A stretch of DNA of 64,000 nucleotides from Escherichia coli (GTDB taxonomy: Bacteria; Pseudomonadota; Gammaproteobacteria; Enterobacterales; Enterobacteriaceae), in assembly GCF_051903065.1 (NCBI RefSeq), contig NZ_CP178438.1; one strand, written 5' to 3'. The position numbers were made by a program, and so were the translations under genes. The notes beneath the pieces were generated by a model. The model ran no database searches and was not told the origin of the DNA. It saw nothing but the letters and a program-made list of their open reading frames with translations. Below, piece after piece: positions 62-11,528 of this stretch; the first letter of the stretch is position 1; each line of letters opens with the position of its first letter.

Positions 62-1396
62 CTAATCCACCAGAATAATCTTCAGTGCAAACAGAGCTGC
101 GACCACCACCACACACAGGTTCAGATCGCGCCAGCGCCCGGTGCATACTTTCATGATGCAGTACGACATAAAGCCGAGTGCAATCCCTTCGGTGATCGAG
201 AAAGTAAAGGGCATCATCACCGTGGTAATAAACGCAGGCACCGATTCGGTAAAATCATCCCAGTTAACGCGCGCCAGGCTCGAAGTCATCAGCACGCCAA
301 CAAAGATTAACGCTCCGGCGGTTGCGTAAGGAGGAACTATCGCCACCAGCGGTGAGAAGAACATAACCAACAGGAACATAACGCCAACCACAACCGCAGT
401 CAGCCCCGTGCGGCCACCGACTGCCACACCAGAAGTACTTTCAATATAGGCAGTAACAGACGAGGTGCCGATAAACGCACCCGCCACCGAACTGACGCTA
501 TCAACATACAGCGCCTTATTCATATTGGGGAATTTACCGTTACCATCTATTAAGCCCGCTTTATCAGTTACACCAATTAATGTTCCTGATGAATCAAATA
601 GGTTGATCAGCATAAAGGAGAAAATGATACCGGCGAGTTCAAGTGTTAACGCGCCGCTCAAATCTACTTCACCAATGACGCCGCTAATATCAGGCGGAAT
701 GGAATAGACGCCGCTAAAATGAACATCACCGAAAAATAATCCACAGCAAGACGTCACCACAATAGAAACCAGCACCGCGGCATGAAAATGACGTGATGAC
801 AACACGGTTATAATAAAAAACCCTAAAATACCTAACAACACGCCGTGAGAACTTAAATCGCCAATCATCACCAGCGTGTCTTTATTGGCGACAATAACGC
901 CAGTATTTTTTAATCCCATTAAGGCGATAAATAATCCAATTCCGCTGGTGATACCAATACGTAAACTTAAGGGAATGTTGGAGATCATCCAGTACCGGAT
1001 ACGAAACAGCGTGAGCAAAAATAGTCCAACTGCGCCCCAGAATATTGCGCCCATCCCGGTCTGCCAGGAGATGCCCATCGCCCCCACGACCACGAAGGCA
1101 AAGAAGGCGTTCAGCCCCATTGCCGGAGCCAGCGCCACGGGTAAGTTAGCAAATATCCCCATCGCAATACTGCCGATACCGGCAATCAAACAGGTGGTAA
1201 CAAACACCACTTTCGGGTCCATTTGTGCCGCGCCGAGGATTTGCGGGTTCACAAAAACGATGTACACCATGGTTAAAAAAGTGGTCATCCCCGCAATCAA
1301 TTCTGTGCGGACGGTGGTCCCATGCTGAGGTAGTTTAAATAATCGCGAAAGCGTCCCTGATTCATTACTCACGTAATCGGTATTGTCATTATTCAT
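62..1396 (-). CDS. adeQ: Purine (adenine) permease, NCS2 family
   Basis: Long ORF; translation near-identical in core to the permease at 51871-53208; adjacent to ade; start chosen at internal ATG 1394-1396 giving 444 aa (track ORF extends to 1474). Confidence 0.85.
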   Translation of the reverse strand: MNNDNTDYVSNESGTLSRLFKLPQHGTTVRTELIAGMTTFLTMVYIVFVNPQILGAAQMDPKVVFVTTCLIAGIGSIAMGIFANLPVALAPAMGLNAFFAFVVVGAMGISWQTGMGAIFWGAVGLFLLTLFRIRYWMISNIPLSLRIGITSGIGLFIALMGLKNTGVIVANKDTLVMIGDLSSHGVLLGILGFFIITVLSSRHFHAAVLVSIVVTSCCGLFFGDVHFSGVYSIPPDISGVIGEVDLSGALTLELAGIIFSFMLINLFDSSGTLIGVTDKAGLIDGNGKFPNMNKALYVDSVSSVAGAFIGTSSVTAYIESTSGVAVGGRTGLTAVVVGVMFLLVMFFSPLVAIVPPYATAGALIFVGVLMTSSLARVNWDDFTESVPAFITTVMMPFTFSITEGIALGFMSYCIMKVCTGRWRDLNLCVVVVAALFALKIILVD

Positions 1397-1570
1397 TTTT
1401 TTGTCCATTGGAGGAGATTTAATCCCTTGCTTTTGTAAAACAAATGACAACAACGGTTCAGTGATAATTATCACATTTCAATTGCACATTAATGGATATT
1501 CTTTAATAATCTCGCGACGTTTCTTTATGATAAATAATAATCAAATTGATAAAATCAAAATGAGAAAAAT

Positions 1571-3337
1571 ATGAATAATTCTATTAACCATAAATTTCAT
1601 CACATTAGCCGGGCTGAATACCAGGAATTGTTAGCCGTTTCCCGTGGCGACGCTGTTGCCGATTATATTATTGATAATGTCTCTATTCTCGACCTGATCA
1701 ATGGCGGAGAAATTTCCGGCCCAATTGTGATTAAAGGACGTTACATTGCCGGTGTTGGCGCAGAATACACTGATGCTCCGGCTTTGCAGCGGATTGATGC
1801 TCGCGGCGCAACGGCGGTGCCAGGGTTTATTGATGCTCACCTGCATATTGAATCCAGCATGATGACGCCGGTCACTTTTGAAACCGCTACCCTGCCGCGC
1901 GGCCTGACGACCGTTATTTGCGACCCTCATGAAATCGTCAACGTGATGGGCGAAGCCGGATTCGCCTGGTTTGCCCGCTGTGCCGAACAGGCAAGGCAAA
2001 ACCAGTACTTACAGGTCAGCTCTTGCGTACCCGCCCTGGAAGGCTGCGATGTTAACGGTGCCAGTTTTACCCTTGAACAGATGCTCGCCTGGCGGGACCA
2101 TCCGCAGGTTACCGGCCTTGCAGAAATGATGGACTACCCTGGCGTAATTAGCGGGCAGAATGCGCTGCTCGATAAACTGGATGCATTTCGCCACCTGACG
2201 CTGGACGGTCACTGCCCGGGTTTGGGTGGTAAAGAACTTAACGCCTATATTACTGCGGGTATTGAAAACTGCCACGAAAGTTATCAGCTGGAAGAAGGAC
2301 GCCGGAAATTACAACTCGGCATGTCGTTGATGATCCGCGAAGGGTCCGCTGCCCGCAATCTCAACGCGCTGGCACCGTTGATCAACGAATTTAACAGCCC
2401 GCAATGCATGCTCTGTACCGATGACCGTAACCCGTGGGAGATCGCCCATGAAGGACACATCGATGCCTTAATTCGCCGCCTGATCGAACAACACAATGTG
2501 CCGCTGCATGTGGCATATCGCGTCGCCAGCTGGTCGACGGCGCGCCACTTTGGTCTGAATCACCTCGGCTTACTGGCACCCGGCAAGCAGGCCGATATCG
2601 TCCTGTTGAGCGATGCGCGTAAGGTCACGGTGCAGCAGGTACTGGTGAAAGGCGAGCCGATTGATGCGCAAACCTTACAGGCGGAAGAGTCGGCGAGACT
2701 GGCACAATCCGCTCCGCCATATGGCAACACCATTGCCCGCCAGCCAGTTTCCGCCAGCGACTTTGCCCTGCAATTTACGCCCGGAAAACGCTATCGGGTC
2801 ATTGACGTCATCCATAACGAATTGATTACGCACTCCCACTCCAGCGTCTACAGCGAAAATGGTTTTGATCGCGATGATGTGAGCTTTATTGCCGTACTTG
2901 AGCGTTACGGGCAACGGCTGGCTCCGGCTTGTGGTTTGCTTGGCGGCTTTGGACTGAATGAAGGTGCGCTGGCTGCGACGGTCAGCCATGACAGCCATAA
3001 TATTGTGGTGATCGGTCGCAGTGCCGAAGAGATGGCGCTGGCGGTCAATCAGGTGATTCAGGATGGCGGCGGGCTGTGCGTGGTACGTAACGGCCAGGTA
3101 CAAAGTCATCTGCCGTTACCCATTGCCGGGCTGATGAGCACCGACACGGCGCAGTCGCTGGCGGAACAAATTGACGCCTTGAAAGCCGCCGCCCGTGAAT
3201 GCGGTCCGTTACCCGATGAGCCGTTTATTCAGATGGCGTTTCTTTCTCTGCCAGTGATCCCCGCGCTAAAACTAACCAGTCAGGGGCTATTTGATGGCGA
3301 GAAGTTTGCCTTCACTACGCTGGAAGTCACGGAATAA
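1571..3337 (+). CDS. ade: Adenine deaminase
   Basis: 588-aa ORF with amidohydrolase-type metal-binding motif (DAHLHIES) and conserved position. Confidence 0.92.
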
Positions 3338-3364
3338 TAAAAAAAGCCCGGCGTCATGCCGGGC
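3336..3364 (-). terminator. Rho-independent terminator downstream of uhpT
   Basis: GC hairpin gcccggc-gtcat-gccgggc followed on the minus strand by a T-run. Confidence 0.6.
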
Positions 3365-3382
3365 AAAAGTCACCAGTTACGT

Positions 3383-4774
3383 TTATGCCACTGTCAACTG
3401 CTGAATTTTTTTCTCGCGGCGGATTTTGCGTTCTTCCATTACCGCCACTATCGCCATCAGGCAGATACAACCAATCGCGGCGATATCCAGCGCGGCGAAG
3501 GTGCCTGCCCAGCCGGTAAGGCCGAATACCGGCGTCCCATCGGCAATCATTCCCAGACCTAACTTGGCAAAGCTGTCACCAATCAGGTAAGCAAAGGTGC
3601 CTTTAATACCATCGGCAGCGCCAATCGCTTTTTTAGGTACAAAGCCAACAGCAGCCACACCAATCAACAATTGCGGGCCAAAGACCAGGAAACCCAACGC
3701 AAAGAGAGAAGCCAGATAGATATATTCGTTACTGGCATGTTGATACACACCGAGCGTGGCGATAATCAGCGCCAGCGCGATGCAGGCCACCAGGCCACGG
3801 CGACCGTTCGCCAGGTCAGAGAGCCAGCCCCACAGCAGCGTACCGACCAGCGCACCAGCTTCAAACAGCGTAAAGCCCTGAATCGCCACCGCTTTAGAGA
3901 GTTTCAGTTCCTGGAACGCGTATACGGTTGACCACTGGTCGATACCAATACGTACCACATAGAGGAAAATGTTGGCGAAGCACAGCAGCCAGATCACTTT
4001 GTTTTTCAGCACATACTCAACAAAGATCTGCCACTTGGTCATATCGGTAGATTCTGTCTCTTTGTCCTCTTCGCTGATCTCCTCGCCGAACAGTTCTTCA
4101 GCTTTGCCGAGGCCATAAGATTCCGGGGAGTCGCTGCCGTAACGCAGGCCGATAAAACCGACAATCAGCGCGATAATCGACGGGAAGATAAACATGCCGA
4201 TGACATGGCCATCGAACAGGTAATTTGCCCCGAACAGCGCCACACCTGCTGCGCCTGCACCGCCAAGGTTGTGAGAAATATTCCAGAAACCGAGGAATGT
4301 CCCGCGTTTACGACGCGGCGTCCATTTGGTGATGGTGGAGTAACTGCACGAACCGCCGGTACTCTGGAAAAAGCCGCTTAAGGCGTAGAAGGCAATCATC
4401 AGGAACAGGCTAACCGAGCCGCTGCCCATACTGGCACTGAAGCCCAGCATACAAATAGCAGAGAGGATCAGCATGAACGGCAGGAATTGTTTGGTGTTTT
4501 TGCCGTCGGCGTAGTAGGAAACCAGCGTTTTACCCACGCCATAAGTGATGGAGAAACCCAGGCCGATCATCCCCAGCTGCGTCATGCTCAACCCGTAGGT
4601 CGAAATCATATCGTTCTGCGCGATGTTAAAGTTCTTGCGAATCAGGTACATCGTCAGGTAGCCGATAAAGACCACCAGGTAGGATTGCATGAACGGTTTG
4701 AACCACATTTTGCGCCGCACTTCGAGCGGAAGGTCCAGGGTCGGCTTGCGAACCTGGTTTAAGAAAGCCAGCAT
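3383..4774 (-). CDS. uhpT: Hexose-phosphate:phosphate antiporter (MFS)
   Basis: 463-aa ORF, MFS organophosphate antiporter family, upstream of uhpC/B/A. Confidence 0.93.
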
Positions 4775-4841
4775 GGGTTACTCCTGAAATGAATACCTGC
4801 GTGAGGCATGCATTGTAAAAATCAGCAGCAAATCAGGCCTG

Positions 4842-4862
4842 AGATAGCGTCCAGGCAAAACC
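4842..4862. promoter_or_regulatory. Inverted repeat CCAGG-caaaa-CCTGG in the uhpT promoter region, candidate UhpA site
   Basis: Palindrome read directly, about 70-90 bp upstream of the uhpT start; assignment to UhpA is inference. Confidence 0.35.
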
Positions 4863-4911
4863 TGGAAAATTTCTTAGTTTTGCCGGATATGAAGTGAAAA
4901 GGTGAGATGCA

Positions 4912-6231
4912 TCACGCTTCGCGCGGTGTCTGGGCGTTCAAAAAGGGCAGTAACAGCAGTGCGGAAATCCCGGCGGCGATAGAGATAACCACAAAAAATC
5001 CGCTCCAGTGCCAGGTATCGAGTACTTTCGCCAGCGGCCAACCAGCAAGCGACGCCCCCAGATAAGCAAACAAGCCGACAAACCCCGTCGCCGCCCCTGC
5101 CGCCTCTTTGTGGGAACACTCTGCCGCCGCCATACCGATTAACATCTGTGGGCCAAAGACAAAAAAACCAATGGTGAAGAAGCAGGTTGCCTGCATCACG
5201 TAGCTGGCAAATGGCATCAGCCACAGGGAGCCGACTGAAAGCAAAATTCCGGCGGCGAAAATCAAATTCATCGGCCCTCGGTTGCCGTTAAACAATTTGT
5301 CCGAGCCCCAACCGGCTACCAGCGCACCGATAAATCCGCCCAGTTCAAACATCGTCACTGCCGTATTCGCCGTGACCAGATCGACGCCCAGTGTCTCGGA
5401 CATATACAAATTGCCCCAGTCGTTGATCGCCGCCCGGACCACATAGACCAGCACATAGCAAAACGAAAGCAGCCAGATATACGGATTCAGCAACACATAT
5501 TTGGTGAGGATCTCTTTACGCGTCAACCCTGCCCCTTCTTGTTGTTGAGCAATTTCCAGCGCGTCGTGTCGCCATTCACCGACCGCCGGTAAACCTAACG
5601 CCTGCGGGCGATCGCGTAGCCGCCAGCAGAGAAAAATCCCCACGACTATCGCCATACAACCAGCAATCATCATCCCGGCACGCCAGCCGTAATGCAGCGC
5701 AGCCGCTGCCATCACAATGGGAATGAGTGCGCCGCCGACGTTATGCGCCGTGTTCCATAATGCCCACCAACCGCCGCGCTCGGTACGTGAATACCAGGCC
5801 GTTAACAGACGCGCACACACCGGTGAACCCCAGCCCTGGAAAAAGGCGTTCAGCACCCAGAGCACGGCAAACGCCCATAGCGACGTCGAGAAGCCAAACA
5901 GAATGTTGATAATGCCCGTGGCGATAAGCCCTATCCCCATAAAATAACGGGCATTTGAGCGATCGCTGACAATGCCGGAGACAAACTTCGACACGCCATA
6001 GGTAATGTAAAACAGGGTCGCTAACAGGCCGATATCGCTACGGCTGAGCACGCCGTTAGCAAGGATTTCTGGTACGGCGGCGTTAAAACTTTTCCGCGTG
6101 AAGTAAAACAGCGCGTAACCCAGCCAGATGGTCAGCAGAATATGCCGACGCCAGTAGCGATAGCGGGCATCAATTTCATATTTATCAGTCATTAATGGCG
6201 CATCGGCAGGCGCTTTCAGAAACGGCAACAT
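4912..6231 (-). CDS. uhpC: Membrane sensor protein of the Uhp system (MFS-like)
   Basis: ORF 4912-6237 homologous to uhpT-type transporters; start at third Met (MLPFLK) assumed. Confidence 0.88.
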   Translation of the reverse strand: MLPFLKAPADAPLMTDKYEIDARYRYWRRHILLTIWLGYALFYFTRKSFNAAVPEILANGVLSRSDIGLLATLFYITYGVSKFVSGIVSDRSNARYFMGIGLIATGIINILFGFSTSLWAFAVLWVLNAFFQGWGSPVCARLLTAWYSRTERGGWWALWNTAHNVGGALIPIVMAAAALHYGWRAGMMIAGCMAIVVGIFLCWRLRDRPQALGLPAVGEWRHDALEIAQQQEGAGLTRKEILTKYVLLNPYIWLLSFCYVLVYVVRAAINDWGNLYMSETLGVDLVTANTAVTMFELGGFIGALVAGWGSDKLFNGNRGPMNLIFAAGILLSVGSLWLMPFASYVMQATCFFTIGFFVFGPQMLIGMAAAECSHKEAAGAATGFVGLFAYLGASLAGWPLAKVLDTWHWSGFFVVISIAAGISALLLLPFLNAQTPREA

Positions 6232-6240
6232 CATCAAACC

Positions 6241-7746
6241 TTAGACATAGCGTTGAGGTAGAGAAACGCTGACACGCGTGCCGTGCAGACAGGAAATGTG
6301 TAATGTGCCACCCAGCGCCGTTACGCGCTCGCGCATTCCGGTGAGGCCAAAACCTTGTTGCCCGGAACCCGGCGGCAAACCGCTGCCATCGTCTTCAATA
6401 ACCAGCATCAACCGTTCATCCTGCTGCCAGCCTTGCAGGGTGACCGCGCTGGCATCAGCATGTTTCACAATGTTGTTCAGCCCTTCCTGGCAGACACGAA
6501 ACAGCGTCACGCGCTGGTTTTCGCTTAACGCTGATTCATCGATTCGCCATTCGAGATGGCTGACAATACCGCGCCCTTCCAGCTCCATTTCCCGCATCAG
6601 TGAGCGGATGGCCTGCTCCAGGGTGAGATCATCCAACTGGCGCGGACGTAACCGACCCAACAAACGGCGCACCGCGTCGTAAACGCCCAGCGATAGTTGT
6701 TCGATGAGCTGCCCGCTCTGCTTCACGCTGGCGTTATCTGCCGCCAGCCGCTGAACAATGCCCGCCTGAGTACGAATAGCAGTGATGGTCTGACCGATAT
6801 CATCATGCAGCTCACGCGCCACATCACGGCGCACGCTCTCTTCGGTTTCCAGCAACCGTTCAGCCAGATGCTGATTGCGCGCCAGTTCCTTTTGCAGCGA
6901 CTGGTTAAGTTCACGCAACCGCTGGATGCCAGCGCCAAGCAACAACCCTGTCAGACTTTGCACCAGCAGCGAGAGCAATAAATCCACCGGATGATCGCGC
7001 CAGGTTTGACTGGCGATCAGCGCGATGGCGTTCATCAACGTCGCAATCAGCGCCCCTTGCCAACCATAGTGCCAGGCCAGCGCGATAATCGGCAGCGCCA
7101 GACAGAATGGCGTAAAGCGCGACAGTTCGTCCGGCAATCCCAACTGGAGCCAGAGACTGATAACAAACAGCAGCAAGTACCAGACCAGATGTCGCCCGCG
7201 CCAGTTGATTGGCTGAGAAACCAGTGACGGACCGAGCGGCAGCCAGGTGTTATTGGCGAGATAGTGCCAGAACACCAGACATATCGGGGCCAGCGTCAGG
7301 CCGCCAGTTAAAGTCAGCAACAGCGCATTCCACGACTCTTTGCCGTGCCAAAGCCAGGGCAGCGACTGCAACAACGCCGCCGCCGTTAACGCCGCCCCCT
7401 GTAACAGCAAGGTGCGCCAGTCACGCTGATGGCGATAGCGCGAGATCAGCGCTACGGGCAGTAACGTCAGTAAACTACCGATCATCAATAACGGAAAATG
7501 GGTTAAACCGACCGCCTGCGTTAGCCAGTAAATCAGCAGCCACTCCGCGCCCAGCAATACGGGCCAGTATCCGCGCGGGCATTGCAGCATTAGCCCCAGA
7601 CGCAGACCAAACGGAAATAACAGCACCGCCATATCAGGGCGCTCAACCAGATGCAGGCTGATACTCCACAGGCAAAACCATGCGGCAGAGAAGATAAAAA
7701 AGCAGGCAATAACGGTAATTAAGCGGGAGAACAACGTCTTCATCAC
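6241..7746 (-). CDS. uhpB: Sensor histidine kinase
   Basis: 501-aa ORF with N-terminal membrane domain and C-terminal HisKA_3/HATPase-like region; overlaps uhpA start by 4 bp. Confidence 0.9.
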
Positions 7747-8333
7747 CAGCCATCAAACATGCGGCGCGCCAGCTCTACGTCGTTACTGACGCCCAGTTTT
7801 TCCATCAGATTGGCGCGATGGACGTGTACCGTTTTCGGTGACAAGCCCAGTTCGGCGGCAATCTCTTTCACCGCCATTCCTTGCGCCAGTTTTTCCGCCA
7901 CCTGGCGTTCACGTTTGGTTAGCGGGTCCTGACGACCGGATGCCAGTTTAATGGCAATATCCGGCGTCAGATAACAGCCGCCCGTGGCAACCGTATGCAC
8001 CGCAGCAATGAGTTCATCCGGGCTACAGCGTTTGGAAAGAAAGCCGCGTGCCCCCGCGTTAAGCGCCTGCTCAACCAGCGCAGGACTGTCGTGAACGGAG
8101 AGCATAATCGTCGCCATACCTTTCGGCAGCTGGCTTAGCAGCTCCAGACCGGAGATATCGGGCATGGAGATATCGCAAATACACACCTGCACACCGCGCC
8201 CCGGCAGCCCCGCCAGCGCCTCGCGCCCCGAACCAAACTCGGCAACTACCTGCAAATCAGGTTCCAGCCCCAGCAGCTGCGCAAAGCCGGAGCGGACGAT
8301 GAGGTGATCGTCTATAAGGGCAACGGTGATCAT
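7743..8333 (-). CDS. uhpA: Response regulator, NarL/FixJ family
   Basis: 196-aa ORF with receiver domain plus LuxR-type HTH. Confidence 0.93.
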
Positions 8334-8408
8334 GGTCTTGTCCTGGCGGGTAAAAAAAATACGCGCTTACCTTAACGATAAGCGCGATGTTGTTCAAGCC
8401 TTGAGCGG

Positions 8409-8699
8409 TTACTGAAAAAACACCGCGATCTTGTTAAACATCGTCGGATCGGACTGATTACGCTGCACTTTCACGACATCTTCCAGCTTATCGATTTGGC
8501 TTATCATCTGCTCCAGACGCTGGTCGTCATTGACCAGTAGCCAGATATGGCTTTTGTCGCTGTCCTGAATCGGCAGACAAAGAATGCCTTCAACGTTAAA
8601 AGCGCGGCGGGCAAAAAGGCCACAAACGTGGGTCATTACGCCCGGATGGTTGCGAACGGTGAGCTCCAGAATTACGTTGTCATGAGTTGTGTTTTGCAT
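8409..8699 (-). CDS. ilvN: Acetolactate synthase I small (regulatory) subunit
   Basis: 96-aa ORF with ACT-domain-like sequence immediately downstream of ilvB. Confidence 0.9.
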
Positions 8700-8702
8700 G
8701 GC

Positions 8703-10391
8703 TTATTCCCCCACCATTTCAGTATTCGCCGCACCTGGCGGCACCATCGGGTAAACTTTTTCTTCGGCATCAATGCGCACATGGATCAGCGCCGGGCCAG
8801 GGCGATTGATGATTTCCTGCAATGAAGCCTGCGGATCGGCTTCGTTATTCAAATCACAGGTTTCGAGGCCGAATCCGGCGGCAATCTGCATAAAGTTGAT
8901 TTTGCCCGGATAGGTGGCGGCAAAAACGCCTTGCTCGTAGAACAGACTCTGTTGCTGATGCACCAGCCCCAGCGCTTCGTTGTTCATCAGAATGATTTTG
9001 ACATCCAGCTGATTTTCACTGGCGGTCGCCATCTCCTGAATATTCATCATCAGGCTGCCGTCGCCGGAGAAACACAACACTTTGCGATCCGGGTTCGCCA
9101 GCGCAGCGCCAATCGCCGCAGGCAGGCCAAAACCCATCGTGCCCAGCCCACCGGAGGTCAGCCACTGGCGTGGGCGATTGAGCGGATAAGCTTGCGCGGT
9201 CCACATCTGATGCTGACCAACGTCGGTGGTGATAATTGCATTGTCATCGACACAGGCGGCAACGGCGTTGATCAGGCCGTAATGGCTTAACGGATCGCAC
9301 GCTTTCGGGATTGGACACGGAAACTCACGCTGCAAATCCGCTACCAACTGGTGCCACTCTGCACGCGGTTGCGCTTCCACCAGCGGGATCAACTGCGCCA
9401 GCACGTCATCAACATCCGCCTGAATCGCCACGTGCGGCTGCTTGATTTTACCCAGCTCTGCACGGTCGATATCGACATGAATGATTTTGGCATTCGGACA
9501 GAACTGCTCGGTTTTGCCAATCGCCCGGTCATCAAAACGCGCACCGAGCACTATCAACAAATCCGCCTCCTGCAAAATATAGTTGGTGCTGCGCACGCCG
9601 TGCATCCCCAGCATACCCAGCGACAACGGATGCGCTTTTGGCAACATGCCCAGCGCCATTAAAGTCATGGTGGTAGGCAGTTGCGCTTTCTCCGCCAGTT
9701 CACGCACCCGTGCGGGCGCATTGATCACACCGCCGCCCAGATAAAGCACCGGGCGTTTGGCAGCGTTAATCATCGCCGCTGCGTCACGAATGCTTTCTTC
9801 GCTAAAGGCGGGGGCGGCGGCTTTTTCTGCCATAGCGGGCTGTGTTTCAATCTCAAAAACTGCCGTTTGCACATCCTTAGGAATGTCTATCCACACCGGG
9901 CCTGGGCGGCCTGATTGCGCAATGCGGAAGGCATCGCTCATGACCTGCGGGAGTTCTTCGATATGTCTGACCAGATAGTTGTGTTTGGTGATGGGGATAG
10001 AGATGCCGTAGGTGTCCACTTCCTGGAAGGCGTCGGTGCCGATCATCGAGGCGGGAACCTGACCAGTGATGCAAATCAGCGGGATGGAGTCCAGCCGCGC
10101 ATCGGCAATGGCGGTCACCAGGTTAGTCGCACCCGGTCCGCTACAGGCCATACAGACCGCCGGTTTACCGTCGGTGCGCGCCATTCCCTGAGCGATAAAG
10201 CCCGCGCCCTGTTCATGACGGGCCAGAATATGGCGGATTTGCGTGCTTTGGCTTAAGGCATCGTAAACAGGCAGGATAGAACCGCCCGGAATGCCTGTCA
10301 CAATCTTAATGCCCTGCTGTTCCAGGAAATGAACGATAAATTCTGCGCCGGTAAAGCGCTTACGCGTCGATGTTGTGCCCGAACTTGCCAT
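8703..10391 (-). CDS. ilvB: Acetolactate synthase I large subunit (ThDP enzyme)
   Basis: 562-aa ORF with ThDP-binding motif (GDGS...N). Confidence 0.93.
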   Translation of the reverse strand: MASSGTTSTRKRFTGAEFIVHFLEQQGIKIVTGIPGGSILPVYDALSQSTQIRHILARHEQGAGFIAQGMARTDGKPAVCMACSGPGATNLVTAIADARLDSIPLICITGQVPASMIGTDAFQEVDTYGISIPITKHNYLVRHIEELPQVMSDAFRIAQSGRPGPVWIDIPKDVQTAVFEIETQPAMAEKAAAPAFSEESIRDAAAMINAAKRPVLYLGGGVINAPARVRELAEKAQLPTTMTLMALGMLPKAHPLSLGMLGMHGVRSTNYILQEADLLIVLGARFDDRAIGKTEQFCPNAKIIHVDIDRAELGKIKQPHVAIQADVDDVLAQLIPLVEAQPRAEWHQLVADLQREFPCPIPKACDPLSHYGLINAVAACVDDNAIITTDVGQHQMWTAQAYPLNRPRQWLTSGGLGTMGFGLPAAIGAALANPDRKVLCFSGDGSLMMNIQEMATASENQLDVKIILMNNEALGLVHQQQSLFYEQGVFAATYPGKINFMQIAAGFGLETCDLNNEADPQASLQEIINRPGPALIHVRIDAEEKVYPMVPPGAANTEMVGE

Positions 10392-10440
10392 GCTCCAGTC
10401 CTTTTCTTCTGGGCCGACTTTCCGGGAGGTGCTTAAACGA

Positions 10441-10475
10441 AAAACCCCGCCCGGTTTGCGCCGGCGGGGTTTTGG
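10441..10475 (-). terminator. ilvBN attenuator terminator
   Basis: GC hairpin (ccccgcc...ggcgggg) followed by a U-run on the minus strand, between leader peptide and ilvB. Confidence 0.7.
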
Positions 10476-10496
10476 AATCGTGTGTTGTTCCAGTCC

Positions 10497-10595
10497 CTAC
10501 GGCGCATTGCCGACGACCACCACCACACGCACGACGACCACTGCGGCGGATGGCGCAGTTGGTAGTAGTTTTGCGTTGAGCATGGAAGTAGTCAT
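10497..10595 (-). CDS. ivbL: ilvBN leader peptide (32 aa, Val/Leu-rich)
   Basis: Minus-strand translation MTTSMLNAKLLPTAPSAAVVVVRVVVVVGNAP read directly. Confidence 0.85.
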   Translation of the reverse strand: MTTSMLNAKLLPTAPSAAVVVVRVVVVVGNAP

Positions 10596-10725
10596 TGGGG
10601 ACCTTGTTGGTTTTGTGTTTAACAATATTTATACAAGCACAGCTTTACAGGGGAGACAATGGAAAATTTTTCAGCAAGGGAAAATTGAGGGGTTGATCAC
10701 GTTTTGTACTGAATTGCAGATAACA

Positions 10726-10865
10726 AAAAACCCCGCCGGAGCGAGGTTTCGTCAGTCGCCTGCGGCTGGTAACCGCAAAGCACACTGTATTATGTCAACA
10801 CTGAAAGTATACGTGTTCCGCGCAGAACGCGCAATTTCGGCACGAATTTTGACGTATTTAGTGCA
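10726..10865 (-). ncRNA. istR: IstR antitoxin sRNA region (istR-1/istR-2), approximate bounds
   Basis: Divergent from tisB; contains a 21-22-nt segment (10779-10806) that is a direct repeat of the tisAB leader segment 11038-11066, so its transcript would be antisense to that mRNA; minus-strand terminator near 10726-10750. Confidence 0.5.
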
Positions 10866-10905
10866 TAGTTGAGTATCGATCACAGTTTGCGTTTTGTCCA
10901 AATAT

Positions 10906-10925
10906 TACTGTTTATTTATACAGTA
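10906..10925. promoter_or_regulatory. LexA box (SOS operator)
   Basis: tactgtttatttatacagta matches the CTGT-N8-ACAG consensus. Confidence 0.8.
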
Positions 10926-11159
10926 AACTTCTATAATATCACTGTACGCAATGTGTTATGCGGGGGCCGCATCGTTACCCGGCGCACTAAGTCCTGGCTG
11001 AAACGGGTGGTGCCGTCAGCGCCTTAACCCCGCGTGAGCACACTGTGTTATGTCAACAAGCACAACGTTTCTCCTTGAGATACCGCGTGCACAACAGCTG
11101 GCAACAGGCAGCGGAAAGGTACGTCAGCTGGCAGTGCTCCTGAACCACAGGAGACGCGT

Positions 11160-11249
11160 ATGAACCTGGTGGATATCGCCATTCTTATCCTCAAACTCAT
11201 TGTTGCAGCACTGCAACTGCTTGATGCTGTTCTGAAATACCTGAAGTAA
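11160..11249 (+). CDS. tisB: Type I toxin TisB (29 aa membrane peptide)
   Basis: Translation MNLVDIAILILKLIVAALQLLDAVLKYLK read directly; LexA box upstream. Confidence 0.85.
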   Translation: MNLVDIAILILKLIVAALQLLDAVLKYLK

Positions 11250-11528
11250 TTCAGATTCAAGTCGCACCAAAGGGGAGCGGGAAACCGCTCCCCTTTTATA
11301 TTTAGCGTGCGGGTTGGTGTCGGATGCGATGCTGACGCATCTTATCCGCCCTACCATCTCTCCCGGCAACATTTATTGCCGCTTTTGTTTACATATTCTG
11401 CCGCTAAACAATTCCCCATTCCTGGCGTATATCTGGCTAACATTCATCAATGTGATAGATTCCTCTCCCGCATTTATGGGAATGCGTAGTGACTTATTCT
11501 AATTATTTTTATAAAAGCATCCGTGATA

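What the first reader, a model, noticed from the sequence alone, without database searches (positions are those of the whole stretch)
10726..11249. tisB/istR type I toxin-antitoxin locus with LexA box and a 21-nt direct repeat that creates trans-antisense pairing
tisB (29 aa) is read exactly at 11160-11249 and a consensus LexA box lies at 10906-10925. The segment gcacactgtattatgtcaacactg (10779-10802) is repeated as gcacactgtgttatgtcaacaagc at 11038-11061. An RNA made from the minus strand over the first copy would be complementary to the plus-strand tisAB leader at the second copy, which is the expected IstR-1 target arrangement. The two copies differ at one position inside the pairing region (a versus g), which may slightly alter duplex stability.
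Basis: partly seen in the sequence, partly recalled or inferred. Interest (0 to 1): 0.4.

Follow-up and report, generated by a model that had tools for sequence, protein, structure and literature searches.

The report
Known tisB/istR toxin-antitoxin locus
This is the well-studied E. coli K-12 tisB/istR-1 toxin-antitoxin locus, base-for-base identical to the reference strain, and the 21-22-nt repeat is the already published pairing site between the IstR-1 antitoxin RNA and the toxin mRNA, so it is correct but ordinary.

Summary
Window 10600-11350 is 100% identical to E. coli K-12 MG1655. tisB (11160-11249, Pfam TisB_toxin), the LexA box (10906-10925) and a full-length Rfam istR match (150 bits, minus strand 10725-10854) are all present. 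The direct repeat is 22 nt (10779-10800 and 11037-11058), 21 of 22 identical, against at most 18 of 22 in 200 shuffles. Read from opposite strands, the copies give the published IstR-1/tisAB duplex at the ribosome standby site (+93 to +114), with the published RNase III product end (+106) in its middle. The a/g difference is a G·U wobble. It is predicted to be as stable as an A-U pair, it is the K-12 wild-type state, and it was found in all five Escherichia loci examined. In 27 loci from six genera the helix stays 99% paired while both flanks diverge. Two positions changed in both copies together. Interest is low: already known.

The parts
10726..10799 (-). istR-1 gene. IstR-1 antitoxin sRNA of about 74-75 nt: a 5' antisense tail, then two stem-loops, the second being the terminator.
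   Evidence: Rfam RF01400 matches 10725-10854 (-) at 150.1 bits. The start at G10799 is inferred from its position 7 nt downstream of the TATACT -10 box. In the fold, nt 1-12 are unpaired and two hairpins follow (MFE -32.5 kcal/mol, z = -4.2).
10726..10865 (-). istR-2. A longer transcript of about 140 nt, under LexA control, that contains all of IstR-1.
   Evidence: The promoter-like site TGGACA-17-GATACT lies at 10900-10872 (-), and these are the hexamers listed in PMC11264685 Table 1. The start at about 10865 is inferred. PMC2826370 states that IstR-2 is LexA-controlled and contains IstR-1. In the Rfam consensus structure, GUUGAC of the antisense tail is paired within the IstR-2 5' hairpin.
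10727..10750 (-). Intrinsic terminator of istR-1 and istR-2.
   Evidence: A 10-bp stem followed by a T-run. It is conserved across genera.
10779..10800 (-). Repeat copy 1, the antisense segment at the 5' end of IstR-1. The RNA helix conserved across species uses 10778-10799.
10806..10811 (-). istR-1 -10 box (TATACT).
   Evidence: Invariant in the 13-locus alignment. Listed as the istR-1 -10 box in PMC11264685 Table 1.
10829..10834 (-). istR-1 -35 box (TTGCGC), with a 17-nt spacer.
   Evidence: PMC11264685 Table 1.
10872..10900 (-). istR-2 promoter: -35 TGGACA at 10895-10900 and -10 GATACT at 10872-10877.
   Evidence: PMC11264685 Table 1.
10906..10925 (.). LexA box (TACTGTTTATTTATACAGTA) between the divergent istR-2 and tisAB promoters.
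   Evidence: The only match in the window, with 0.04 expected by chance. The CTGT-N8-ACAG core is conserved in 13 of 13 aligned loci.
10932..10937 (+). tisAB -10 box (TATAAT). The transcription start (+1) is at about 10945.
   Evidence: PMC11264685 Table 1. The +1 position comes from calibrating the published mutant names C50, C51, G54, C55, U56, G57 and C74 onto the sequence, which gives window = 10944 + N.
10945..10985 (+). 5' segment (+1 to +41) of the primary tisAB mRNA. It is removed by processing to give the active +42 mRNA, and it holds a partial third copy of the repeat (CAATGTGTTATG, 10949-10960).
   Evidence: PMC6690012 and PMC5668327 describe the +1 mRNA as inactive and +42 as active. 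RNAfold of the +1 mRNA pairs 10946-10956 with target nt 11037-11048. The partial copy is family D1.
10991..11033 (+). 5' stem-loop/pseudoknot element of the +42 mRNA, the structured half of the standby site.
   Evidence: A nearly invariant block across six genera. It covers the published stem-loop at pos. 50-64 and the pseudoknot arm at 73-77 (PMC7708055).
11037..11058 (+). Repeat copy 2. This is the IstR-1 target and the single-stranded half of the ribosome standby site (+93 to +114). The RNase III product end +106 falls at 11050.
   Evidence: Literature: PMC6690012, PMC4147584.
11050..11163 (+). tisA, an untranslated 37-codon frame whose ATG lies inside the IstR-1 target.
   Evidence: PMC2826370 describes tisA as an untranslated ORF. 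The frame is not conserved across genera.
11149..11154 (+). tisB Shine-Dalgarno sequence (AGGAGA), predicted to be mostly base-paired.
   Evidence: PMC11264685 Table 1. Mean unpaired probability of SD plus AUG is 0.19-0.20.
11160..11249 (+). tisB, the 29-aa membrane toxin.
11269..11296 (+). tisAB intrinsic terminator.
   Evidence: A 12-bp perfect stem followed by a T-run.

Best explanation
This is the canonical E. coli K-12 tisAB/istR type I toxin-antitoxin locus.

LexA bound at 10906-10925 represses the tisAB promoter, and the divergent istR-2 promoter, until DNA damage occurs. The primary tisAB mRNA starts at about 10945 and is translationally inert. Removal of its first 41 nt yields the +42 mRNA. 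In that form the segment at 11037-11058, together with the structured element just upstream, serves as a ribosome standby site about 100 nt upstream of the structured tisB RBS.

IstR-1 is made constitutively from the minus strand, from about 10799 to about 10726. Its 5' tail is the reverse complement of repeat copy 1. It therefore forms a continuous duplex of 21-22 bp with copy 2 in the mRNA, including U·G wobbles. This blocks 30S/S1 standby binding and triggers RNase III cleavage to give the inactive +106 mRNA.

Shown here:
- all the sequence elements
- identity to K-12
- the RNA and protein family matches
- the predicted duplex
- cross-genus conservation and covariation of the helix

Taken from the literature rather than tested here: the transcripts, the processing, standby binding, RNase III cleavage and toxicity.
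For: - 100% identity to K-12 MG1655 over 751 nt, with the flanking genes ilvB/ivbL and emrD as in K-12.
- Rfam istR match at 150 bits and Pfam TisB_toxin match.
- A unique LexA box.
- The published promoter hexamers and SD sequence found at the expected places (PMC11264685).
- A repeat of 21/22 identity against at most 18/22 in 200 shuffles.
- A continuous 22-bp duplex of -35 kcal/mol. The next best site for the IstR-1 tail anywhere in the 64 kb is -23 kcal/mol.
- Cofolding IstR-1 with the +42 mRNA gains about 24 kcal/mol over the separate folds.
- The published numbering maps +106 to 11050, inside the duplex.
- Cross-species support: 28 TisB loci from Escherichia, Salmonella, Citrobacter, Leclercia, Enterobacter and Intestinirhabdus. 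The repeat was present in all 25 loci with enough upstream DNA, and its flanks diverge at both borders.
- Rfam istR lies on the strand opposite tisB in 10 of 10 diverse loci tested.
- The intermolecular helix is 99% paired across 22 distinct sequences, against 20-50% when slid by 1-3 columns. Two pairs changed on both sides (A-U to G-C in 4 distinct rows, U-A to C-G in 1). All 20 one-sided changes are U·G wobbles. None of 500 shuffles reached the observed covariation score.
- The 11 distinct cognate pairs (10 from the 26-locus alignment plus the recovered Enterobacter locus L033) keep 20-22 of 22 positions paired.
Against: Nothing contradicts the explanation. The caveats are these.

- No expression data can be obtained with these tools.
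- In silico, the predicted accessibility of the target differs only modestly between the +1 and +42 mRNAs (unpaired probability 0.39 versus 0.47).
- 16 of the 22 helix pairs never vary, so the covariation evidence rests on two positions.
- Concerted change of two direct repeats could in principle reflect gene conversion rather than selection on pairing.
- Four loci carry an A·C mismatch and the Enterobacter locus carries two mismatches, so perfect pairing is not strictly required.
Confidence: 0.97

Rival explanations
1. The repeat is a chance match or a neutral remnant of a local duplication, with no role in RNA pairing.
For: Direct repeats can arise by duplication. An unconstrained duplex prediction extended the pairing to about 70 nt, which at first suggested a longer duplicated segment.
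Against: The extension beyond the core is not significant. For the flank alignment, 43 of 500 shuffles scored at least as well, and the flank duplex energy is no better than for shuffled sequence. The 22-nt core is far beyond chance. It is conserved in 25 of 25 loci across genera while the sequence directly on either side diverges.
Confidence: 0.01
2. The two copies are kept alike because both are DNA sites for the same binding protein, or because gene conversion homogenises them, rather than because of RNA-RNA pairing.
For: The same substitution appears in both copies in some lineages, which concerted evolution would also produce. The core ACAC-T-GTGT is nearly palindromic, as protein-binding sites often are (read directly from the sequence; one search shows a partial copy of it pairing with the target).
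Against: All 20 one-sided differences are of the type that still pairs in RNA (U in IstR opposite G in the mRNA). A DNA-site or conversion model does not predict that bias. At 22 nt the repeat is at or below the usual minimal length for efficient homologous recombination in E. coli (general knowledge, not tested here). Published in vitro work shows IstR-1 base-pairing to this site, displacing 30S and S1, and inducing RNase III cleavage (PMC6690012).
Confidence: 0.02
3. The effective antisense regulator is the longer, LexA-controlled IstR-2 rather than IstR-1.
For: IstR-2 contains the whole antisense segment, and its promoter is conserved.
Against: The literature reports that IstR-2 does not repress tisB translation (PMC11264685, PMC2826370). 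In the Rfam consensus structure, the first bases of the antisense segment (GUUGAC) are paired within the IstR-2 5' hairpin, which would hinder initiation of pairing. That last step is inference.
Confidence: 0.03

Closest known systems
tisB/istR-1 (tisAB/istR) type I toxin-antitoxin locus of E. coli K-12 MG1655
   Same: Everything is the same. The sequence is 100% identical over 10600-11350, and the gene order, promoters, LexA box, pairing region and terminators all match.
   Different: Nothing.
[quoted passage not shown]
   Same: They share the architecture. [quoted passage not shown] The toxin mRNA needs 5' processing to become active. dinQ is also under LexA control (PMC5668327, PMC4147584).
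   Different: The sequences and toxins are unrelated. dinQ/agrB does not use ribosome standby (PMC5668327).
hok/sok-type type I TA loci
   Same: A small membrane toxin is silenced by an antisense RNA, with RNase III cleavage of the duplex.
   Different: Sok is cis-encoded and overlaps its target, and it acts on a leader ORF (mok). In tisB/istR the antisense is trans-encoded through a direct repeat and competes with standby ribosomes (PMC4147584).

Membership tests
tisB/istR type I toxin-antitoxin system | A 29-aa hydrophobic TisB peptide (Pfam PF13939) | tested here: met
   37.4 bits against a cutoff of 25. RefSeq annotates the identical ORF as tisB.
tisB/istR type I toxin-antitoxin system | An IstR sRNA gene (Rfam RF01400) divergent from tisB and not overlapping it | tested here: met
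   150.1 bits against a gathering score of 45, full-length match at 10725-10854 (-), about 300 nt upstream of tisB.
tisB/istR type I toxin-antitoxin system | About 21 nt of complementarity between the IstR-1 5' end and the tisAB 5' UTR, about 100 nt upstream of the tisB RBS | tested here: met
   A continuous 22-bp duplex of -35 kcal/mol between 10779-10800 (-) and 11037-11058 (+). The SD sequence is at 11149-11154. The helix is conserved and covaries across genera. PMC4147584 states 21 nt.
tisB/istR type I toxin-antitoxin system | A LexA box at the tisAB promoter (SOS control) | tested here: met
   TACTGTTTATTTATACAGTA at 10906-10925, 7 nt upstream of the TATAAT -10 box. Conserved in 13 of 13 aligned loci.
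tisB/istR type I toxin-antitoxin system | Constitutive IstR-1 transcript, +1/+42/+106 mRNA isoforms, and RNase III cleavage of the duplex | not testable with these tools
   Sequence only. The published numbering maps +106 to 11050, inside the duplex. The experiments are reported in PMC6690012, PMC7708055 and PMC4147584.
tisB/istR type I toxin-antitoxin system | Toxicity of TisB and its neutralisation by IstR-1 | not testable with these tools
   Reported for this exact sequence in K-12 (PMC4147584, PMC2826370).

The most novel reading that the evidence does not exclude
The locus itself is not new. The most novel reading left open concerns its evolution. The cross-genus data suggest that the IstR-1/tisAB helix evolves through tolerated intermediates. 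In four species the target has changed U to C while IstR keeps A, giving an A·C mismatch. In three clades both sides have changed, giving G-C. All one-sided differences elsewhere are U·G wobbles. The same T-to-C change destroys the tisA start codon, so selection appears to act on the RNA helix and not on tisA. The two U·G wobbles in Escherichia might then tune how much tisB mRNA is needed to overcome IstR-1. Such tuning is purely speculative.
Probability: 0.15. Interest if true: 0.2.

Novelty: already known. Interest (0 to 1): 0.06.

Why it matters
tisB/istR-1 matters as the textbook example of SOS-induced persister formation and of antisense control through competition with standby ribosomes. 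All of that is already published for this exact sequence. The practical value here is limited to two points. First, the first-stage reader recognised the locus and its pairing logic correctly from raw sequence. Second, no istR feature is annotated over this region in the RefSeq records inspected, although the RNA is well characterised.

Tried and rejected
1. Extended homology or pairing beyond the 22-nt core. An unconstrained duplexfold gave a -78.7 kcal/mol interaction of about 70 nt. The flank alignment (43 of 500 shuffles at least as good) and the flank duplex energy (222 of 300 shuffles at least as low) show this is GC-rich chance pairing.

2. The TisB peptide (29 aa) is too short for the search for related loci and the search for homologous proteins. 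I used a degenerate codon pattern on genome contigs instead. Three of the 31 hits (L006, L013, L024; Eubacteriaceae, Emergencia, Flavobacteriaceae) are chance matches with no in-frame ATG.

3. Counting pairs over a 33-column helix that included the flanks gave no signal, because the flanks are unpaired. This defined the helix borders, and the 22-pair core was then tested separately.

4. Variation within E. coli is too low (98.5% identity or more) for a covariation test.

5. L026 (Enterobacter) lacked the istR side. It was recovered as L033 through the neighbouring EamA gene. It gave two concerted changes but also two mismatches, so it offers only partial support.

6. The original 2004 IstR paper (PMID 15620655) is not held. 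The 75-nt and 140-nt transcript sizes therefore rest on my recollection, together with the promoter and terminator geometry.

7. A second IstR-1 site at the partial third copy (10949-10960) was considered. It lies in the +1 to +41 segment that is removed on processing, and in RNAfold it pairs with the target itself. I therefore read it as part of the published 5' inhibitory element, not as a second target. It was not tested further.

Full report

Yes. The ORF list gives an ATG ORF at 11160-11249 (+) encoding MNLVDIAILILKLIVAALQLLDAVLKYLK. It passes Pfam's TisB_toxin threshold at 37.4 bits against 25. TACTGTTTATTTATACAGTA at 10906-10925 is the only match to TACTGT-N8-ACAGTA in the 64-kb window, with 0.04 expected by chance.

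The repeat finder reports a 22-nt direct repeat, AGCACACTGTATTATGTCAACA at 10779-10800 and AGCACACTGTGTTATGTCAACA at 11037-11058. It has one difference, A10789 versus G11047. Copy 2 is placed correctly. The best 22-mer direct match in 10400-11500 is 21 of 22, whereas 200 dinucleotide-preserving shuffles gave best matches of 14-18 of 22.

**2. What is it?**

Window 10600-11350 is 100% identical to E. coli K-12 MG1655 and to many other E. coli chromosomes. The K-12 annotation shows ilvB and ivbL on one side, and tisB, ysdE and emrD on the other. The full locus is present in 4150 of 5426 complete E. coli genomes, always at 98.5% identity or more.

On the minus strand, Rfam's istR model (RF01400) matches full-length at 10725-10854, with 150.1 bits against a gathering score of 45. 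The hexamers that PMC11264685 (Table 1) lists for the three promoters all occur exactly once in 10701-11260:
- istR-1: -35 TTGCGC at 10829-10834 and -10 TATACT at 10806-10811
- istR-2: -35 TGGACA at 10895-10900 and -10 GATACT at 10872-10877
- tisAB: -10 TATAAT at 10932-10937
- tisB SD: AGGAGA at 11149-11154

Intrinsic terminators lie at 10750-10727 (-) and 11269-11296 (+). G10799 lies 7 nt downstream of the istR-1 -10 box. A transcript from there to the terminator is about 74 nt. It folds into a 12-nt free 5' tail followed by two hairpins, with MFE -32.5 kcal/mol and z = -4.2.

**3. Mapping the published numbering**

PMC7708055 names mutations C50/C51, G54, C55, U56, G57 and C74 in the tisB mRNA. 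These bases fit the window sequence only with window = 10944 + N (sequence). This gives:
- +1 at about 10945
- +42 at 10986
- the repeat copy at +93 to +114
- +106 at 11050, the end of the RNase III product, in the middle of the duplex
- the tisB AUG at +216

The target therefore lies about 100 nt upstream of the RBS, as published (PMC6690012, PMC7708055).

**4. The duplex**

The reverse complement of copy 1 (IstR-1 5'-UGUUGACAUAAUACAGUGUGCU) forms a continuous 22-bp duplex with copy 2, at -35.1 kcal/mol. The a/g difference becomes a U·G wobble. Replacing it by A-U leaves the energy unchanged, and replacing it by G-C gives -37.0 kcal/mol.

No other site in the window approaches this energy. 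The next best is -23.1 kcal/mol. The plus strand of istR itself is trivially complementary and is excluded. Cofolding IstR-1 with the +42 mRNA yields -165.8 kcal/mol against -142.0 for the two folded separately, with the duplex at the expected place.

In the RNAfold MFE structure of the +1 mRNA, target nt 11037-11048 pair with 10946-10956. That partner is absent from the +42 mRNA. This agrees with the published model in which the first 41 nt mask the standby site (PMC6690012, PMC5668327). The computed difference in accessibility is modest, however (0.39 versus 0.47).

**5. Independent comparative test**

A codon-level pattern built on the conserved TisB residues reported in PMC11449926 places no constraint on istR or the leader. 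It found 31 loci in the one-genome-per-species collection. Of these, 28 encode a 29-aa TisB, in Escherichia, Salmonella, Citrobacter, Leclercia, Enterobacter and Intestinirhabdus.

In all 25 loci with enough upstream DNA, the best direct repeat upstream of tisB is this same element, at a spacing of 237-258 nt. Sequence identity between the copies ends at the repeat borders. Rfam istR hits the strand opposite tisB in 10 of 10 diverse loci.

I joined each locus's IstR segment to its own target (alignment A1) and counted pairs. Over a 33-column helix the flanks are unpaired, and a 22-pair helix stands out: IstR 10799-10778 with mRNA 11036-11057 in K-12 coordinates. On this core:
- 99.0% of cells pair, against 20-50% when slid by 1 to 3 columns
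- 16 pairs are invariant
- 3 pairs vary on one side only, always C-G to U·G
- 2 pairs change on both sides: A-U to G-C in 4 distinct sequences, and U-A to C-G in 1
- none of 500 shuffles reaches the observed percentage paired or the covariation score

Exceptions exist. Four loci have an A·C mismatch, where the target changed and IstR did not. A divergent Enterobacter locus, recovered through a neighbouring gene, shares two concerted changes but has two mismatches.

Across the 11 distinct cognate pairs, 20-22 of 22 positions pair, with ΔG from -30 to -40 kcal/mol.

Two caveats apply. The covariation rests on two positions, the events are not all independent, and gene conversion between the copies cannot be formally excluded. 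The exclusive U·G nature of the one-sided changes favours selection at the RNA level.

**6. The wobble is the wild-type state**

The A at 10789 is present in K-12 and in all five Escherichia loci examined: the window, two E. coli species representatives, E. whittamii and Escherichia sp. E1V33. In other genera this position is G in both copies.

In 3517 of 4356 E. coli genomes that carry the region, the 57-mer around it is identical. Two sampled variants keep the A and differ elsewhere.

**7. Mechanism**

Steps shown here versus steps taken from the literature are marked.

- Shown: the LexA box between divergent promoters, the antisense segment at the very 5' end of IstR-1, the target 100 nt upstream of a structured RBS, and the conserved helix.
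- From the literature: LexA represses tisAB. The +1 mRNA is inert. The +42 mRNA is translated through 30S/S1 standby binding at the single-stranded target plus the upstream pseudoknot. IstR-1 is constitutive, pairs with the standby site, blocks 30S and S1, and induces RNase III cleavage to give the inert +106 mRNA. IstR-2 is LexA-controlled and does not repress. TisB depolarises the inner membrane and promotes persisters (PMC4147584, PMC6690012, PMC7708055, PMC5668327, PMC2826370, PMC11264685).
- Inference: in the Rfam consensus structure, GUUGAC of the antisense segment is paired in the IstR-2 5' hairpin, which may explain why IstR-2 is ineffective.

**8. Comparison and novelty**

This is not merely a member of the tisB/istR family. 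It is the type locus itself, identical in sequence. Every sequence-testable defining feature is met. The expression-level features cannot be tested here but are published for this sequence.

Novelty: already known. Interest: low.

**9. Side observations**

- The tisA frame, whose ATG lies inside the target, is not conserved across genera: ACG replaces ATG in 11 of 29 loci, lengths range from 12 to 66 aa, and frames differ.
- The leader between the target and the RBS stem varies in length, while the block at 10991-11033 is nearly invariant.

Noticed in passing
window 11050-11163 (+); loci L002-L033: The tisA frame is not conserved across genera. Its start codon lies inside the IstR-1 target and is ACG instead of ATG in 11 of 29 TisB loci. 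ORF length varies from 12 to 66 aa and the frames differ. This fits reports that tisA is untranslated. It contrasts with the more than 99% conservation within E. coli that PMC11264685 notes as unexplained.
   Followed up: partly
window 11059-11095 (+) and the aligned loci: The leader between the IstR target and the RBS stem varies in length. Most Citrobacter and Leclercia loci have a deletion of about 33 nt, putting the target 83 nt rather than 117 nt before the tisB ATG. The Enterobacter locus L033 has an insertion, putting it 155 nt before. The standby distance is therefore not fixed.
   Followed up: partly
window 10991-11033 (+): The block AAGTCCTGGCTGAAACGGGTGGTGCCGTCAGCGCCTTAACCCC is nearly invariant across six genera and is the most conserved non-coding part of the locus. 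It coincides with the published 5' stem-loop/pseudoknot of the +42 mRNA (PMC7708055).
   Followed up: partly
window 10949-10960 (+): A partial third copy of the repeat (CAATGTGTTATG) lies at +5 to +16 of the primary tisAB mRNA. The repeat core ACAC-T-GTGT is nearly palindromic. In RNAfold the 10946-10956 segment pairs with target nt 11037-11048 in the +1 mRNA. This is probably the published 5' inhibitory element.
   Followed up: partly
L008, L022, L027, L028 (Citrobacter spp., Intestinirhabdus); L033 (Enterobacter): These loci carry non-pairing positions in the IstR/target helix. The first four have one A·C mismatch, where the target is C and IstR still has A. L033 has A·C plus G·A. They look like intermediates towards the G-C state seen in Leclercia and the C. 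youngae group.
   Followed up: partly
window 10725-10865 (-); RefSeq records NZ_CP032667.1, NZ_CP073768.1, NZ_CP028603.1: No istR feature is annotated over this region in the RefSeq records inspected, and search hits report 'none' under the match. The RNA nevertheless matches Rfam at 150 bits.
   Followed up: no
L034 (E. coli SH19PTE6), equivalent to window 10788: This E. coli strain has T to G at the base next to the wobble position in the istR copy (CTGTA to CTGGA). If its target is unchanged, that would put C opposite U in the duplex. The target side was not checked.
   Followed up: no
window 11373-11447 (-): The small ORF ysdE (24 aa) is annotated between tisB and emrD in K-12. It corresponds to the 25-aa TTG ORF.
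   Followed up: no
window 11318-11350 (+): A weak match to naRNA4/REP-like sequence (22 bits, E = 0.86). This probably explains the extra short BLAST places per genome seen.
   Followed up: no
window 10436-10473 and 10497-10595 (-): These are the ilvB attenuator hairpin and the ivbL leader peptide gene. The hairpin resembles the istR terminator: 16 nt are 94% complementary or identical (I1 and D4). PMC11264685 also notes short BLAST matches to the 3' end of istR elsewhere in the genome.
   Followed up: no
E. coli genome collection: Only 4150 of 5426 complete E. coli genomes (76%) hold at least 80% of the locus. Some hold truncated versions, for example H49 and H50.
   Followed up: no
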